A stretch of DNA of 16,117 bases from a virus. Taxonomy: Duplodnaviria; Heunggongvirae; Uroviricota; Caudoviricetes. A model generated the notes under the pieces. That model was not told where the DNA came from and made no database searches. It saw only the letters and a program-made list of their open reading frames with translations. Every line of letters begins with the position of its first letter. The stretch's first letter is position 1. The stretch covers positions 1 to 16,117 of the IMG/VR virus record IMGVR_UViG_2740892235_000017. The stretch is one strand, 5' to 3'. Below are positions 4,982 to 11,882 of the stretch, piece after piece. Position numbers and translations under genes: made by a program.

Positions 4982-5137
4982 TTACTCCTCAGGTTCGTAA
5001 GCTGTGAAGACAGCGACCTCCGTCTGGCCGGTTCGGATTCGTACCTCGCAGAGGTCTTTCCTCGTTACCAGTGCCGTCATTATGACGGTTAAACAGATGA
5101 CAATCAGGGCGATTAACATCGCCTTTTGCTGCTTCAT
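4982..5137 (-). CDS. hokD: Hok/Gef-family type I toxin (HokD/RelF-like, 51 aa)
   Basis: MKQQKAMLIALIVICLTVIMTALVTRKDLCEVRIRTGQTEVAVFTAYEPEE closely matches recalled E. coli HokD (RelF). SD GGAGAAG lies upstream of the ATG at 5135..5137. The ORF-track 70-aa form is an in-frame upstream extension. Confidence 0.85.
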   Translation of the reverse strand: MKQQKAMLIALIVICLTVIMTALVTRKDLCEVRIRTGQTEVAVFTAYEPEE

Positions 5138-5400
5138 AGCCTGCTTCTCCTTGCCTTTCGGCACGTAAGAGGCTAACCTACATGTGCAAAGCATGAAATT
5201 GGCCTCAGATTAATGTTAAGCGTCCTGCAAGACGCGTAATGTTAACTGGGGCTTTTCTCTGTCTGCCTTACGGCGGCATGCCCGAGGCAGACAGCCTCAA
5301 GCACCCGCAGCAATTCTACTTAACTCTTCTTTCCCCGCAAATCATTTTATCCCCGATGGTAATGTTCTCCCGATATGGGAATTCCCATATCAAGGTTAAC
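5138..5400 (-). promoter_or_regulatory. hok leader region (mok/sok-type regulation expected); candidate antisense Sok RNA on the plus strand
   Basis: About 260 nt of untranslated leader upstream of hok, containing an inverted repeat TCTGTCTGCC...GGCAGACAG (about 5257..5292). Hok loci are known to carry a structured leader and an antisense RNA; exact ends cannot be set here. Confidence 0.35.
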
Positions 5401-5960: not shown

Positions 5961-6121
5961 GATAACGCCCTCTGGTTGATGAATTTAACTATCACCACCT
6001 TCAGGTCTCAATCATCAGGTGGCGAGACGTACAGGGTTGAGACTACCGGATCAACCAACCGGCCAGCCTTTCGGCTGCCCCATACGCCTCACCATAATTC
6101 AGATGTGCGTGCGCATACGAC

Positions 6122-6145
6122 AATAAAAAACACGCTCGCGGCGTG
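6122..6145 (-). terminator. Rho-independent terminator on minus strand
   Basis: Minus-strand hairpin CACGC-cgcga-GCGTG (plus 6131..6145) followed by TTTTTT (plus A-run 6125..6130). Confidence 0.45.
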
Positions 6146-6301
6146 TGTCTGTCGCGGTTGAATATCCGGGGTCTCAATCCCGACGGTCAACTCGACCGTG
6201 CGGTGAATATAGCCCCGGATTAGTAATTACGTCAACCCCAGCGGCAAATCGAATAAACCACCAGCGCTACCGCCATTGCAACTCCTGCCGTTACGAATGC
6301 C

Positions 6302-8859: not shown

Positions 8860-9285
8860 TCAATGCACAACAACAGCATTACCAGGCTGACCACCACTGT
8901 TAGTCAGGGTGCCCCAGGCGATCGCTACAGCGACAAAATCATCCACATCTTTCACCAGCCGATCCCGTCGTTCGACGATCTCCCGGTAATATTCAGAACT
9001 GTGACTGCGCATACGGGCCACCAGCAAAGGCGGCATCGCCTTTTCGATCGCCGGTAACAGCGCCTGAATTTTTTCAACAGCATCAGACGTGTCCTTCTCC
9101 ACCCAGCGGAAAATTTTCTGGGTATTACGGGCCAGGGCTTCCGGATGGCTGTCGTCATACAGTTCCGGGAACGTCATCCCCAGCTCGAAATAAGTCCGGG
9201 CTATTTCAGCTGCGGGAACTTTCTCACCATCAGGATATGCCCAGGCATTCATCGCCATACGGATGTGTTCATGCTTGATTTTCAT
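8860..9285 (-). CDS. YdaT-like protein (CII-position gene of Rac-type immunity regions)
   Basis: 141-aa ORF immediately downstream of the Cro-like gene, beginning MKIKHEHI, which matches my recollection of Rac YdaT. Assignment by position and partial recall. Confidence 0.45.
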   Translation of the reverse strand: MKIKHEHIRMAMNAWAYPDGEKVPAAEIARTYFELGMTFPELYDDSHPEALARNTQKIFRWVEKDTSDAVEKIQALLPAIEKAMPPLLVARMRSHSSEYYREIVERRDRLVKDVDDFVAVAIAWGTLTNSGGQPGNAVVVH

Positions 9286-9544
9286 GAATCACCCCCGTCT
9301 CTGGTTGTGTGTTAGCCTGACACTCGACAGGTAAGCCGTCGGTTGGGTTGGGATAAGAACTGCGATCAATCTCGTGCGGAGTTACTATCCAGCCAGTTGC
9401 TTCACACCAACGTAAAATTTTTTCCCCCGTAAGTTTCGCCCGCCCGGTAATGACATGGCTTACCATCCCCTGGGTTACCCCAACAATTTCAGCAAAATGT
9501 TTCTGAGTTATACCGGAATAACGCAAATATTCTCCAAGATTCAT
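9269..9544 (-). CDS. Cro-like / YdaS-like HTH regulator (91 aa)
   Basis: N-terminal HTH-like segment (ITQKHFAEIVGVTQGMVSHVITG). Divergent from the repressor gene. SD GAGGTG upstream of the ATG at 9542..9544. Confidence 0.6.
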   Translation of the reverse strand: MNLGEYLRYSGITQKHFAEIVGVTQGMVSHVITGRAKLTGEKILRWCEATGWIVTPHEIDRSSYPNPTDGLPVECQANTQPETGVIHENQA

Positions 9545-9574
9545 TGTTCACCTCATGTGATGTCATCACGATCA

Positions 9575-9603
9575 TTAATAGCATTGTTATTTTTAAAAGT
9601 AAA
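9575..9603 (-). promoter_or_regulatory. Candidate leftward promoter for the cro-like operon (pR analogue)
   Basis: Minus strand: -35 TTTACT (plus 9598..9603), 17-nt spacer, -10 TATTAA (plus 9575..9580). Overlaps operator candidates A and B. Confidence 0.3.
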
Positions 9604-9616
9604 TAGCGCCACTATT
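9577..9616. promoter_or_regulatory. Operator pair (OR-like): two 15-bp sites of form AATAGC-N3-GCTATT, centres 25 bp apart
   Basis: Site A 9577..9591 AATAGCattGTTATT; site B 9602..9616 AATAGCgccACTATT. Each has one mismatch to a perfect inverted repeat. Located in the cro-like/repressor intergenic region. Confidence 0.55.
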
Positions 9617-9644
9617 TCAAAGAGATTAATAATCTTATTAGAAT
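9616..9644 (+). promoter_or_regulatory. Candidate rightward promoter for the repressor operon (pRM analogue)
   Basis: -35 TTCAAA (9616..9621), 17-nt spacer, -10 TAGAAT (9639..9644). Predicted start would be close to the ATG at 9652 (near-leaderless, as for lambda cI from pRM). Confidence 0.3.
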
Positions 9645-9651
9645 TGAAGGT

Positions 9652-10152
9652 ATGAAAAGAAAATCCCTGTCAGAGATCGACCTGCAAGCCGCCCAGAGAC
9701 TAAAAGAAATCTGGACGGCGAAAAAAAATCAACTAGGGTTAACCCAAGAGCGTGCGGCAGAAATTCTGGGATTTTCGACACAGGGAGCTGTAAGCCATTA
9801 TCTAAATGGTCAGACACCTTTAAATCTTGAGGCTGTTATCAAGTTCGCAGGGTTACTGCAAGTTCCTCCCGAGTCAATCAGACCAGATATGGCCGAGTTG
9901 TTACAAATTGTAAGGATGTATCCCCAAGAATCTGGGGAGGACAATGTTGTCACTATATCTGCCGATATGGAACAATCGGAAAACGAACTTCCGTTTAATA
10001 TAGACCCCATGGAGCGGGATTTGCTCCAGACGTTCAGGGCTTTCCCCAAAGAAGATAAAGAGAAAATGCTTAAGGAAATGAAGGAGAAAAAAGAATCAAT
10101 TGAAGAAATCGTTGCGCGATGGCTAGCTGCGCAAAAAAGTCGTCGCGCCTAA
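9652..10152 (+). CDS. CI-like prophage repressor (XRE-family HTH, no S24 peptidase domain); PaaR-like first gene of a three-gene repressor-antitoxin-toxin operon
   Basis: 166-aa ORF with N-terminal HTH (LGLTQERAAEILGFSTQGAVSHYLNG) and a charged helical C-terminus. Divergent from the cro-like gene. Followed 17 nt later by the antitoxin gene. Confidence 0.65.
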   Translation: MKRKSLSEIDLQAAQRLKEIWTAKKNQLGLTQERAAEILGFSTQGAVSHYLNGQTPLNLEAVIKFAGLLQVPPESIRPDMAELLQIVRMYPQESGEDNVVTISADMEQSENELPFNIDPMERDLLQTFRAFPKEDKEKMLKEMKEKKESIEEIVARWLAAQKSRRA

Positions 10153-10169
10153 TCTGAGGAGGTCAAAAC

Positions 10170-10361
10170 ATGAGTACAGCCCTTTCCCCGATAATTTCTG
10201 AATTTGAAACGGTCGAACAAGAAAACAGCTATAACGAATGGTTGCGAGCCAAAGTGGCAGCAAGCCTCGCAGATCCCCGTTCTGGAATTCCGCATGATGA
10301 AGTAATGGCTGAAATGGAAAACCTTATTGCTCAATTAGCTACAACGAACAGGAGTGAGTAA
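10170..10361 (+). CDS. Small antitoxin of a ParE-family toxin (PaaA-like, 63 aa)
   Basis: Strong SD GAGGAGG before the ATG at 10170. Its stop overlaps the toxin ATG by 1 nt. Size and context match the PaaA2 antitoxin of paaR-paaA-parE modules as recalled. Confidence 0.55.
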   Translation: MSTALSPIISEFETVEQENSYNEWLRAKVAASLADPRSGIPHDEVMAEMENLIAQLATTNRSE

Positions 10362-10651
10362 TGCTGCCCATTTTATGGCTACCTTCTGCACGTGATGATT
10401 TACGTCAGATAGTAGCCTATATTGCTAAAGAAAACCCTCCCGCTGCACGTAGACTAAAAATACGCATTGAAACATCAGTTTTGTCACTTACTGAACACCC
10501 TTATCTGTACCCACCGAGCGAAAGAGTTCCAAGTCTTCGAGAGATAGTGACTCATCCTAACTACATAATACTTTACCGAGTAACAACATCTAACATCGAG
10601 ATCGTAAATGTAGTTCACTCACGAAGGCAGTATCCAAACAAAAGCTGTTAA
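10361..10651 (+). CDS. parE: ParE/RelE-superfamily toxin (96 aa)
   Basis: ParE-like features: N-terminal LPSARDDLRQIVAYIAKENPPAARRL and C-terminal IEIVNVVHSRRQYP. Translationally coupled to the upstream antitoxin. Confidence 0.6.
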   Translation: MLPILWLPSARDDLRQIVAYIAKENPPAARRLKIRIETSVLSLTEHPYLYPPSERVPSLREIVTHPNYIILYRVTTSNIEIVNVVHSRRQYPNKSC

Positions 10652-10662
10652 TCATTTCTGTC

Positions 10663-10688
10663 AAAAACCACCTTCGGGTGGTTTTTTT
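10663..10688 (+). terminator. Rho-independent terminator after the repressor-TA operon
   Basis: AACCACC-ttcg-GGTGGTT hairpin followed by TTTTTTT (10682..10688). Confidence 0.7.
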
Positions 10689-10699
10689 CTTGCCGTGAT

Positions 10700-10739
10700 A
10701 ATAGCGTTGCTATTTACATAATTAAATAGCAGTGGTATT
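10700..10739. promoter_or_regulatory. Operator pair (OL-like): two 15-bp sites AATAGC-N3-GCTATT, centres 25 bp apart
   Basis: Site C 10700..10714 AATAGCgttGCTATT (perfect); site D 10725..10739 AATAGCagtGGTATT (one mismatch). Same motif and same 25-bp spacing as the OR-like pair. Confidence 0.55.
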
Positions 10740-10741
10740 GT
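10713..10741 (+). promoter_or_regulatory. Candidate pL-like promoter for the early-left operon
   Basis: -35 TTTACA (10713..10718), 17-nt spacer, -10 TATTGT (10736..10741). Overlapped by operator sites C and D. Confidence 0.35.
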
Positions 10742-10919
10742 TTATGCATCAACCCACCCCGTCCCACAGAATGCAGGGCAATACTTCGAGTTACCCGGCA
10801 GTGGCAAGGGGTTAAGTAGCCAGCCCGAGGCGTATGAACATGACGGCGGGAACACTTTGTATAACAGCGCAGCAGGTTTTTAGTTCCGCTACCCGGCGTT
10901 AAGGGTAAATGAGGTCAAC

Positions 10920-11072
10920 ATGGATACGCTCAATCTTGGCAACAACGAATCTCTGGTATGCGGTGTGTTCTCTAACCAGGACGGCACGTTTACCGCGATG
11001 ACGTATACCAAAAGTAAAAAGTTTAAAACCGAAGCTGGCGCGCGTCGCTGGTTAGCCAGAAACACTAACTGA
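10920..11072 (+). CDS. Small early-left protein (50 aa; YdfA-like)
   Basis: ATG at 10920 with SD GAGGT 5 nt upstream; TGA at 11070..11072. Below the ORF-track size cutoff. Occupies the position ydfA holds downstream of dicA in Qin. Confidence 0.4.
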   Translation: MDTLNLGNNESLVCGVFSNQDGTFTAMTYTKSKKFKTEAGARRWLARNTN

Positions 11073-11324
11073 TTAGTACCAGTAAAAACAGGTTGCCACT
11101 GGTTAATTTACCCTGAAAAGTCAGGGCATAACACGAAAGCGCACGGCGAAGTTCGTATATCTGTACGGCGTCGTTAAATTTTCTTCGACCGTGCACTTCC
11201 GGTTGTGGCAATCCGCGAAATGGCGCGGCGGTAAGTATGGCTGGGGTTTCCTCCATTGCTCCAGAAAATGCACCGGGTTGTCAGGTTGACCATACGCTTA
11301 AGTGACAGCCCCGCCACAATACCC

Positions 11325-11380
11325 ATGTGTAGTCTTTGGTGGCATCAGTTCTACTCCGTGACTGCTCTGCCACCCTTTTT
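11325..11380 (+). ncRNA. dicF: DicF-like small RNA with intrinsic terminator
   Basis: Segment ...GGTGGCATCAGTTCTACTCCGTGACTGCTCTGCCACCCTTTTT closely resembles recalled E. coli DicF. Terminator stem GGTGGCA/TGCCACC (11338..11344 and 11368..11374) plus T-run 11376..11380. Lies immediately upstream of dicB as in Qin. The 5' end is approximate. Confidence 0.5.
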
Positions 11381-11872: not shown

Positions 11873-11882
11873 NNNNNNNNNN
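11873..11882. other. Assembly gap (10 N)
   Basis: Run of 10 n characters. Confidence 1.

What the first reader, a model, noticed from the sequence alone, without database searches (positions are those of the whole stretch)
9577..10739. Two operator pairs with the same motif and the same 25-bp spacing bracket the repressor-TA operon
Four 15-bp sites of form AATAGC-N3-GCTATT occur as two pairs, at 9577..9591 and 9602..9616 (between the cro-like and repressor genes) and at 10700..10714 and 10725..10739 (just after the operon terminator). Centre-to-centre spacing is 25 bp in both pairs, and each pair overlaps a plausible -35/-10. This looks like an OR/OL arrangement for the CI-like repressor, read directly from the sequence.
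Basis: seen in the sequence. Interest (0 to 1): 0.65.

Follow-up and report, generated by a model that had tools for sequence, protein, structure and literature searches.

The report
Prophage repressor operators OR and OL
The four repeated 15-bp palindromes are real and are almost certainly the binding sites (OR and OL) of a lambda-like prophage repressor that also drives a toxin-antitoxin pair; this is a new sequence specificity inside an already published type of genetic switch, not a new kind of system.

Summary
There are four AATAGC-N3-GCTATT sites with at most 1 mismatch, in two pairs 25 bp apart. About 0.02 are expected per window, and 0 of 2000 shuffles gave two or more.

A weight matrix built only from 35 sites in nine other loci ranks these four sites 1-4 of about 16,100 window positions.

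- **Repressor:** the N-terminal domain of the 166-aa protein is a sequence homologue of the lambda CI DNA-binding domain. Its C-terminal domain is of the PaaR2/DicA type and has no S24 peptidase domain.
- **Conservation:** in twelve related loci from Escherichia to Proteus, the motif sits at -75 and -50 from the repressor ATG. It appears again as a pair after the repressor operon, overlapping conserved -35 and -10 hexamers.
- **Specificity:** heteroimmune prophages with the same flanks carry different palindromes at these positions.

Two refinements:
- A weak third OR site lies at 9625-9639, inside PRM.
- Spacing in relatives is 23-27 bp, not strictly 25.

The architecture is already published for PaaR2 (CP-933P) and RacR (Rac). 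No binding experiment exists for this repressor. Verdict: new member of a known kind, modest interest.

The parts
9577..9591 (.). OR1: the operator nearest PR, AATAGCATTGTTATT. It overlaps the PR -10.
   Evidence: PWM rank 1 of about 16,100. The position 75 bp before the repressor ATG is conserved in 12 related loci.
9602..9616 (.). OR2: AATAGCGCCACTATT. It overlaps the PR -35 by 2 bp and abuts the PRM -35. Its centre lies about -43 from the repressor ATG, which is the presumed start of a leaderless transcript.
   Evidence: rank 4. The position at -50/-49 is conserved in all relatives.
9625..9639 (.). Candidate weak OR3: ATTAATAATCTTATT. It lies in the PRM spacer and touches the PRM -10.
   Evidence: PWM rank 7 of about 16,100 at 9.5 bits. 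Relatives have a better site at the same offset, 23-24 bp after OR2: ATTAGCAATACTATT, ATTAGCAATCTTATT, ATTAGTAATCTTATT and ATTAGTAAAACTATT. The assignment is inferred from position; the site itself is degenerate.
10700..10714 (.). OL2: the operator further from the PL start, AATAGCGTTGCTATT (perfect match). Its last two T's begin the PL -35.
   Evidence: rank 2. The arrangement of site followed by TTGAC is conserved in all relatives.
10725..10739 (.). OL1: the operator nearest the PL start, AATAGCAGTGGTATT. It overlaps the PL extended -10.
   Evidence: rank 3; conservation.
9575..9603 (-). PR candidate, driving the cro-like and ydaT-like genes: -35 TTTACT (9603-9598), 17-nt spacer, -10 TATTAA (9580-9575).
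   Evidence: Read. The geometry matches PL and the PR regions of relatives, for example TTGATT-17-TAATAT in Providencia. The consensus scan missed it because the last base of the -10 is A. Inferred.
9616..9644 (+). PRM candidate: -35 TTCAAA, 17-nt spacer, -10 TAGAAT. The -10 ends 7 nt before the A of the repressor ATG, which suggests a leaderless mRNA.
   Evidence: A -10-like element at a similar short distance from the ATG is seen in relatives. Leaderless PRM transcripts were shown for PaaR2 (PMC8630535) and RacR (PMC9638921). Inferred here.
10713..10741 (+). PL candidate: -35 TTTACA, 17-nt spacer, TG-extended -10 TATTGT. It reads into the ydfA-like gene, DicF and the exonuclease and integrase genes.
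   Evidence: The hexamers are conserved in relatives. Downstream genes are identified.
9652..10152 (+). Repressor gene, 166 aa. The N-terminal domain is lambda CI-like; the C-terminal domain is PaaR2/DicA-like. There is no S24 peptidase domain.
   Evidence: HTH_3 only. (lambda CI N-terminal domain 1LMB, E = 1.5e-9, residues 2-90). (C-terminal domain 48% identical to the CP-933M-type PaaR-like protein). (PaaR2 primers encode matching peptides). (DicA C-terminal domain 27% identical, E = 2e-5).
9269..9544 (-). Cro-like (YdaS-type) HTH gene, 91 aa. It is the likely second protein reading the same operators.
   Evidence: Its HTH resembles the repressor's: TQGMVSHVITG against TQGAVSHYLNG. This recognition helix is conserved in all loci of the same immunity type and differs in the heteroimmune L002.
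8860..9285 (-). YdaT-family (CII-analogue) gene. A YdaT-box-like site, TTGATTTTCATGAATCAC, lies at 9275-9292.
   Evidence: PF06254. (1 mismatch to TTGATT-N6-AATCAA, the YdaT site given in PMC9986795).
10170..10651 (+). paaA-like antitoxin (10170-10361) and parE toxin (10361-10651), co-oriented with the repressor gene and immediately downstream of it.
   Evidence: PaaA2 PF21217, E = 8e-21; ParE PF05016, E = 5e-18.
10663..10689 (+). Intrinsic terminator that ends the repressor-TA operon.
   Evidence: -14.8 kcal/mol, z = -3.6, followed by a T-run.

Best explanation
The window holds the immunity region of a Rac/CP-933P-like lambdoid prophage of E. coli. The four palindromes, plus a weak fifth at 9625-9639, are the operators of its CI-type repressor.

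Proposed mechanism:
- Dimers of the 166-aa repressor read A(A/T)TA(G/A)C-N3-G(C/T)TA(T/A)T through a lambda-CI-like N-terminal helix-turn-helix domain.
- At OR, occupancy of OR1 and OR2 blocks the -10 and -35 of PR. This shuts off the cro-like and ydaT (CII-like) genes and the replication genes.
- The dimer at OR2 sits next to the PRM -35, centred near -43. From there it could stimulate the probably leaderless repressor-paaA-parE transcript.
- The weak OR3 inside PRM would give negative autoregulation at high repressor levels.
- At OL, two dimers cover the -35 and -10 of PL. This shuts off the ydfA-DicF-dicB-exonuclease-integrase arm.
- The PaaR2/DicA-type C-terminal domain probably mediates cooperativity between adjacent dimers, and possibly OL-OR looping over the 1.1 kb between them.
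- The Cro-like protein probably uses the same sites with a different preference order.

Shown here: the sites are real and statistically exceptional; they are conserved in position across genera; they co-vary with the HTH type of repressor and Cro; they overlap promoter hexamers; and the domain homologies hold.

Inferred: actual binding, order of occupancy, PRM activation, a leaderless start, and looping.
For: Statistics:
- Four sites with at most 1 mismatch, against 0.02 expected.
- A PWM built without the window's own sites ranks them 1-4 in the window.

Proteins:
- The repressor's N-terminal domain is homologous to the lambda CI N-terminal domain, including the N-terminal arm.
- Its C-terminal domain is homologous to the PaaR-like protein of L002 and weakly to DicA.
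- Peptides encoded by published PaaR2 primers (AFPEDEQ, ARWIAA, QKCRRA*) match the window's AFPKEDKE, ARWLAA and QKSRRA*.
- PaaR2 is reported to form octamers (PMC8630535).

Phylogenetic footprint:
- In the 10-locus OR alignment, 19 of the 24 invariant non-ATG columns fall inside the three sites. None falls in the first 29 columns, which cover the cro leader.
- In the OL alignment the invariant columns are the half-sites and the -35 and -10.
- Geometry is conserved in 13 loci, while the OR-OL distance varies from 0.57 to 3.0 kb and the cargo in between differs.

Specificity:
- L002 (CP-933M-type), Rac K-12, Rac-SA53 and Qin share flanks or architecture with the window. They have other HTH domains and carry other palindromes at the same places.
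- The Cro recognition helix co-varies in the same way.

Precedent:
- PaaR2 and YdaS footprint OR and repress PR, PRM and PL in CP-933P.
- RacR binds TAGGC-n3-GCCTA repeats.
Against: - No binding data exist for this protein.
- The PR -10 (TATTAA) is poor, and the scan did not call it.
- OR3 has 5 mismatches to the strict consensus. Two coding-region sites, at 408 and 4447, outscore it, so its function in this particular prophage is uncertain.
- Similarity to PaaR2 itself was checked only through primer-encoded peptides, not the full protein.
- The prophage may be defective, in which case the switch might act only as a bistable regulator of the TA pair and cell-division genes rather than as a lysis-lysogeny switch.
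Confidence: 0.88

Rival explanations
1. The palindromes are autoregulatory operators of the toxin-antitoxin module. In this reading the PaaA-ParE complex binds them, as in classical type II TA systems, and the upstream HTH protein does not.
For: The first pair lies upstream of the operon that contains paaA-parE. Classical TA operons are autoregulated through palindromes in their own promoter (general knowledge, restated in PMC8630535).
Against: The motif keeps its positions in relatives that have no TA between repressor and OL (Yersinia L004, Rouxiella L005, L031). It also keeps them in relatives with unrelated cargo: HipA_2/DUF3037, HigBA and HicAB.

L002 carries paaA-parE homologues but lacks the motif.

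PaaA2 has no DNA-binding domain (PMC8630535).

The second pair lies after the operon terminator, on a promoter reading away from the TA genes.
Confidence: 0.02
2. The sites are bound only by the Cro-like (YdaS-type) protein, or by another phage or host factor. The 166-aa protein would then act elsewhere.
For: The Cro-like recognition helix also co-varies with the motif. Sequence analysis therefore cannot separate the two proteins.
Against: The repressor's HTH (STQGAVSHYLNG) is nearly invariant in exactly the loci that carry the motif. It is a lambda CI N-terminal-domain homologue.

In lambda, 434, CP-933P and Rac, the repressor and Cro share operators (textbook knowledge for lambda and 434).

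A host factor would not change its motif between heteroimmune prophages within one species.
Confidence: 0.06
3. The resemblance is incidental: AT-rich promoter DNA, or a duplicated promoter segment, that happens to be palindromic and has no operator function.
For: The regions are AT-rich. The OR and OL segments align over about 48 bp because both contain the sequence site, -35, site, -10. The tool also flags the OL pair as a 12-bp hairpin.
Against: 0 of 2000 shuffles give two or more sites.

Conservation across genera is concentrated in the half-sites, while the N3 centres and the linkers vary. Two differences from the 99.6%-identical L001 lie at the sites, and both fall in the N3 spacers.

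The flagged hairpin is a by-product of two adjacent palindromes.
Confidence: 0.01

Closest known systems
paaR2-paaA2-parE2 / ydaS-ydaT immunity region of cryptic prophage CP-933P, E. coli O157:H7 (Jurenas et al. 2021, PMC8630535)
   Same: The gene order is the same: ydaT, then ydaS/cro, then the divergent OR, then the regulator, paaA and parE, then a terminator, then OL/PL, then the ydfA/dicB arm. The regulator has no S24 peptidase domain and has a homologous C-terminal domain. The repressor ATG sits right after a -10, as in the leaderless paaR2. OL/PL lies just beyond the TA genes. A YdaT-box-like site lies at the cro/ydaT junction.
   Different: The DNA-binding domain is unrelated in sequence: here it is lambda-CI-like, whereas PaaR2 starts MQKKEIRR. 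The operators also differ. Here they are 15-bp AATAGC-N3-GCTATT sites, 3 at OR and 2 at OL. CP-933P has four 18-bp inverted repeats with half-site GTTTAGTAA at OR, plus three OR and three OL operators. Nothing here has been tested experimentally.
Bacteriophage lambda CI / Cro with OR1-3 and OL1-3
   Same: The N-terminal domain is a detectable sequence homologue of the lambda CI N-terminal domain (E = 1.5e-9). The promoter logic is the same: PR and PRM are divergent, an OR2-like site abuts the PRM -35, and a weak OR3 lies inside PRM. Adjacent sites are 23-25 bp apart; lambda's 24 and 23 bp are from my own knowledge. A cargo slot between the repressor gene and OL matches the position of lambda rexAB. 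PL reads towards exo and int.
   Different: The recognition helix and the operator sequence differ. There is no S24 autocleavage domain, so RecA-mediated induction is not expected. OL has two sites rather than three. OL and OR are 1.1 kb apart, against about 2.3 kb in lambda.
RacR / YdaS of the Rac prophage, E. coli K-12 (PMC9638921, PMC11879457)
   Same: Operators have the same format, a palindrome with a 3-bp centre: (T/A)TAGGC-n3-GCCTA(T/A) there, AATAGC-N3-GCTATT here. There are three sites at OR, a site-TTGACA-site arrangement downstream of racR, and a leaderless racR promoter. The PL leader is also nearly identical.
   Different: RacR shows no significant sequence similarity to this repressor (E = 40). 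RacR's O3 overlaps its own start codon. There are no TA genes between racR and OL.
DicA / DicC of the Qin prophage, E. coli K-12
   Same: The C-terminal domain is weakly homologous (27% over 51 aa, E = 2e-5). The downstream PL arm is the same: ydfA, DicF, dicB.
   Different: The HTH domain and the operators differ: TGTTAGTCATAACTAACA-type sites in Qin.

Membership tests
Lambda CI-type phage repressor with OR/OL operators | N-terminal HTH domain homologous to the lambda CI DNA-binding domain | tested here: met
   phmmer against PDB: 1LMB/1LLI/7JVT lambda repressor, E about 1e-9, query residues 2-90 aligned to CI residues 3-88.
Lambda CI-type phage repressor with OR/OL operators | C-terminal S24 (LexA-like) autocleavage and oligomerisation domain | tested here: not met
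   Pfam finds only HTH_3 and HTH_31, with no PF00717. The C-terminal 76 aa align with PaaR-like and DicA C-terminal domains instead. The protein therefore works like CI but is not a full-length member of the CI/LexA family.
Lambda CI-type phage repressor with OR/OL operators | Repeated palindromic operators in the cI-cro intergenic region and at a second promoter beyond the cI operon, overlapping the promoter hexamers | tested here: met
   conserved in 12 relatives.
Lambda CI-type phage repressor with OR/OL operators | The repressor binds the operators, represses PR and PL, and autoregulates PRM | not testable with these tools
   Needs EMSA, footprinting and reporter fusions.
PaaR-PaaA-ParE three-component TA embedded in a lambdoid immunity region | Operon order regulator, PaaA-type antitoxin, ParE toxin | tested here: met
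   Genes at 9652-10152, 10170-10361 and 10361-10651, all on the plus strand. PF21217 PaaA2 E = 8e-21; PF05016 ParE E = 5e-18.
PaaR-PaaA-ParE three-component TA embedded in a lambdoid immunity region | Regulator homologous to PaaR2 | tested here: inconclusive
   Only the C-terminal domain is shared. It is 48% identical over 87 aa to the CP-933M-type PaaR-like protein. Short peptides decoded from PaaR2 primers also match it. The N-terminal DNA-binding domain is of a different type. The full PaaR2 sequence was not retrieved.
PaaR-PaaA-ParE three-component TA embedded in a lambdoid immunity region | Divergent ydaS(cro)-ydaT(cII) operon, with an OL/PL analogue beyond the TA genes | tested here: met
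   Cro-like HTH gene and YdaT PF06254. YdaT-box-like site. PL and OL at 10700-10741.
RacR family | Sequence homology to RacR | tested here: not met
   BLASTP against K-12 RacR gives E = 40. Only the operator format and the locus architecture are alike.

The most novel reading that the evidence does not exclude
The repressor may define an undescribed, widespread immunity type of Enterobacterales prophages. It joins a lambda-CI-like DNA-binding domain to a PaaR2/DicA-type C-terminal domain that lacks a cleavage site.

Two features stand out:
- Its operator code, A(A/T)TA(G/A)C-N3-G(C/T)TA(T/A)T, and its site geometry are conserved from Escherichia to Proteus.
- Its PRM transcript serves as a swappable slot for toxin-antitoxin cargo: PaaA-ParE, HigBA, HicAB, HipA-like, or nothing.

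This would make repressor-coupled TA expression a general prophage-addiction strategy. Variants with two HTH domains (244-250 aa) might read two operator types.
Probability: 0.35. Interest if true: 0.45.

Novelty: new member of a known kind. Interest (0 to 1): 0.3.

Why it matters
The finding gives a concrete, testable operator set for an uncharacterised prophage repressor. A near-identical (99%) version of that repressor is recorded on at least 1000 contigs. The immunity region itself is found nearly full-length in 72 of 5,426 complete E. coli genomes.

It extends the PaaR2 / CP-933P picture: the same switch-plus-TA architecture exists with at least one further DNA-binding specificity.

The conserved motif could be used to annotate the immunity type of Rac/Qin/CP-933P-like prophages across Enterobacterales. 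It could also predict which prophages cross-repress each other.

It does not change how such switches are understood.

Tried and rejected
- **Close phage matches.** Megablast of 9200-11000 against GenBank phages found no record covering more than 19% of the query. No characterised phage has this immunity region.
- **C-terminal domain search.** The word-indexed protein search with the C-terminal domain alone returned only fragments and did not recover PaaR2. I used primer sequences from the paper's Table S3 instead.
- **First related-loci attempt.** It failed because the alignment had no conserved stretch. It worked after trimming the first sequence to the N-terminal domain.
- **RacR as a homologue.** Rejected.
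- **Extra sites at 408, 1520 and 4447** (2 mismatches each). All lie inside annotated coding sequences of the near-identical L001 and score about 10 bits or less. I treat them as chance.
- **Hairpin flagged as terminator-like at 10705-10734**. It is a by-product of two adjacent palindromes.
- **Conserved PL leader, 10747-10920.** No Rfam family matches it, and it folds no better than shuffles (z = -0.12).
- **Literature search for the motif.** It found nothing relevant.
- **Pseudomonas and more distant relatives, L010-L022.** They have no sites within 2 mismatches. The motif therefore holds only down to roughly 55% identity in the N-terminal domain.
Full report
**Observation**

- 9577-9591 AATAGCATTGTTATT
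- 9602-9616 AATAGCGCCACTATT
- 10700-10714 AATAGCGTTGCTATT
- 10725-10739 AATAGCAGTGGTATT

Each pair is spaced 25 bp start to start. No other site with at most 1 mismatch occurs in the 16,117-bp window. In 2000 dinucleotide-preserving shuffles the mean count was 0.0215, and no shuffle had two or more.

The pattern was derived from these same sites, so I also built a weight matrix from 35 sites found in nine other loci, leaving the window out. That matrix ranks the four window sites 1st to 4th of about 16,100 positions, at 23.3, 22.9, 18.4 and 14.4 bits. The next best position scores 10.3 bits.

**Gene context**

The window is a lambdoid (Rac/Qin/CP-933P-like) prophage of E. coli. A 99.6% identical copy lies in strain FORC_069, next to an integrase and the host yccA gene.

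Leftward of the first pair, on the minus strand:
- a Cro-like HTH gene (9269-9544)
- a YdaT-family (CII-analogue) gene (8860-9285)
- a DnaT-domain replication gene
- a lambda P-like gene

Rightward, on the plus strand:
- the 166-aa HTH repressor gene (9652-10152)
- a PaaA2-family antitoxin gene (10170-10361, PF21217, E = 8e-21)
- a ParE toxin gene (10361-10651)
- a strong intrinsic terminator (10663-10689; -14.8 kcal/mol, z = -3.6)

The second pair follows the terminator. After it come a DUF1391/ydfA-like gene, the DicF sRNA (11324-11375), an 823-aa exonuclease gene and an integrase gene. This is the lambda map: cII and cro, then OR, then cI plus cargo, then a terminator, then OL/PL reading towards exo and int.

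**The repressor**

Residues 2-90 are a sequence homologue of the lambda CI N-terminal DNA-binding domain (1LMB, E = 1.5e-9). The homology includes the basic N-terminal arm, but the recognition helix differs: STQGAVSHYLNG.

There is no S24 peptidase domain. The last ~87 residues are 48% identical to the C-terminus of the 133-aa regulator that precedes paaA-parE homologues in a CP-933M-type prophage (L002). They are also weakly similar to the C-terminus of DicA (27% identity, E = 2e-5).

I could not retrieve the full PaaR2 sequence. However, the PaaR2 primers in Table S3 of PMC8630535 translate to AFPEDEQ, ARWIAA and QKCRRA-stop. These match the window's AFPKEDKE, ARWLAA and QKSRRA-stop. The protein is therefore a lambda-CI-type N-terminal domain joined to a PaaR2/DicA-type C-terminal domain. 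PaaR2 is reported to form octamers in solution (PMC8630535).

**Promoters**

| Promoter | Strand | -35 | Spacer | -10 | Relation to sites |
|---|---|---|---|---|---|
| PL | + | TTTACA (10713-10718) | 17 nt | TG-extended TATTGT (10736-10741) | The -35 starts with the last two T's of the first OL site. The -10 lies in the right arm of the second. |
| PR | - | TTTACT (9603-9598) | 17 nt | TATTAA (9580-9575) | Same geometry as PL. Read; the scan does not call it because the last base is A. |
| PRM | + | TTCAAA (9616-9621) | 17 nt | TAGAAT (9639-9644) | The -10 ends 7 nt before the A of the repressor ATG. |

The PRM geometry suggests a leaderless mRNA, as shown experimentally for paaR2 and racR. 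The site at 9602-9616 is centred about -43 from that start, next to the PRM -35. From my own knowledge, that is the position lambda OR2 holds relative to PRM.

**Conservation test**

Homology searches found repressors with the same type of N-terminal domain, 56-94% identical over that domain and with a nearly invariant recognition helix. They occur in:
- E. albertii (L033)
- E. coli (L034)
- Shigella sonnei (L026)
- Salmonella diarizonae (L029)
- Citrobacter braakii (L003)
- Yersinia frederiksenii (L004)
- Rouxiella (L005)
- Providencia (L006)
- Proteus (L009)
- three metagenome contigs (L027, L031, L035)

In every one of these loci the motif occurs 73-75 and 49-50 bp upstream of the repressor ATG. 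It occurs again as a pair downstream of the repressor operon, in the order site, TTGAC(A), site, -10.

In the 10-locus OR alignment, 19 of the 24 invariant non-ATG columns fall within the sites. None falls in the first 29 columns, which cover the cro leader. In the OL alignment the invariant columns are the half-sites and the promoter hexamers.

The family consensus is A(A/T)TA(G/A)C-N3-G(C/T)TA(T/A)T, with A1, T3, A4 and C6 invariant or nearly so. Spacing is 24-25 bp for OR1-OR2 and 24-27 bp for the OL pair. The OR-OL distance ranges from 0.57 to 3.0 kb.

**A third OR site**

All relatives except Yersinia have a further, weaker site 23-24 bp after OR2, inside PRM. Examples are ATTAGCAATACTATT, ATTAGCAATCTTATT, ATTAGTAATCTTATT and ATTAGTAAAACTATT.

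The window has ATTAATAATCTTATT at the equivalent position, 9625-9639. It has 5 mismatches to the strict pattern and ranks 7th by PWM. I read this as a degenerate OR3.

**Specificity controls**

Prophages with similar architecture or flanks but other HTH domains carry other palindromes at the same positions:

| Prophage | Palindrome at OR and OL |
|---|---|
| L002 (same YdaT, PaaA-ParE homologues and PL leader) | AAAAACTGT...ACAGTTTTT |
| Rac K-12 | TAGGC-N3-GCCTA |
| Qin | TGTTAGTCATAACTAACA-type |

None of these has the window's motif in its operator regions. More distant relatives in the N-terminal domain (52-54% identity), a Stx2a phage and Rac-SA53, have drifted versions at the same offsets.

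The Cro-like proteins tell the same story. All loci of the window's immunity type share the helix (T/S)QG(M/Y/F)(V/I)S(H/Q)(V/I). This resembles the repressor's TQGAVSHY. L002's Cro has AQQTVWQW instead. The motif therefore tracks the repressor/Cro pair.

**Not the TA module**

The cargo between the repressor gene and OL varies among loci that keep the motif:
- PaaA-ParE in the window, L026, L033 and L034
- HipA_2 plus DUF3037 in L027
- HigB-HigA in L029
- HicA-HicB in L035
- nothing in L004, L005 and L031

This rules out the rival reading that the palindromes are TA-complex operators.

**Mechanism (inferred)**

Repressor dimers at OR1 and OR2, and at OL1 and OL2, occlude PR and PL. The dimer at OR2 may activate PRM, and OR3 may give negative autoregulation. 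The PaaR2-type C-terminal domain may supply cooperativity and OL-OR looping. Cro probably competes for the same sites.

All of these steps are shown for lambda. Several are shown for PaaR2/YdaS in CP-933P: footprints over OR, repression of PR, PRM and PL, and activation of PRM at low PaaR2 levels. None has been tested for this protein.

**Comparison and novelty**

The architecture is published for CP-933P (PMC8630535) and Rac (PMC9638921). Two things appear undescribed in the literature I could search:
- the particular operator sequence
- its pairing with a lambda-CI-like N-terminal domain on a PaaR2-type C-terminal domain

I file this as a new member of a known kind. The finding is correct and well supported, but of modest interest.

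Noticed in passing
window 9275-9292: TTGATTTTCATGAATCAC has 1 mismatch to the YdaT recognition repeat TTGATT-N6-AATCAA described for CP-933P. It sits at the junction of the cro-like and ydaT genes, so it is probably a PRE analogue (about 1.4 matches at up to 2 mismatches are expected by chance in the whole window).
   Followed up: partly
window 10746-10905: The leader downstream of PL, before the ydfA-like gene, is 85-90% conserved in 3,793 of 5,426 complete E. coli genomes. These include heteroimmune prophages (Rac K-12, the CP-933M-type L002) whose repressors and operators differ. No Rfam family matches it, and it folds no better than shuffles (z = -0.12). Its function is unexplained.
   Followed up: partly
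L026-L035 and L003-L009, between the repressor gene and OL; window 10170-10651: The slot co-oriented with the repressor gene and upstream of OL carries different cargo in loci of the same operator type: PaaA-ParE, HipA_2+DUF3037, HigB-HigA, HicA-HicB, or nothing. It looks like a swappable toxin-antitoxin slot, analogous in position to lambda rexAB.
   Followed up: partly
proteins P0014, P0018-P0022; loci L003, L006, L009, L027, L035: Repressor variants of 244-252 aa carry two HTH domains in tandem, the window type followed by the L002/PaaR-like type, ahead of the same C-terminal domain. Their loci show only the AATAGC-type sites at OR and OL. What the second HTH binds is unknown.
   Followed up: no
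window 5132-5306, 6015-6099, 6125-6199, 11324-11375: Rfam matches above the gathering score: sok antitoxin RNA (the near-identical L001 annotates a Hok/Gef gene at the corresponding position), C4 antisense RNA, isrK, and DicF.
   Followed up: no
window 11873-11882: A run of 10 N's, either an assembly gap or masking, lies inside the PL arm.
   Followed up: no
window 9623-9635: AGATTA-A-TAATCT is a perfect 13-bp palindrome that overlaps the candidate OR3 in a different register. It is kept in close relatives (AGATTAGTAATCT in L033) but not in distant ones. It might be a site preferred by Cro, or it might be chance in AT-rich DNA.
   Followed up: no
window 9602-9616 and 10700-10714, compared with L001: Two differences between the window and the 99.6%-identical FORC_069 copy lie at the operator sites, and both fall in the unconstrained N3 centres (GCC to ACC, GTT to ATT).
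   Followed up: no
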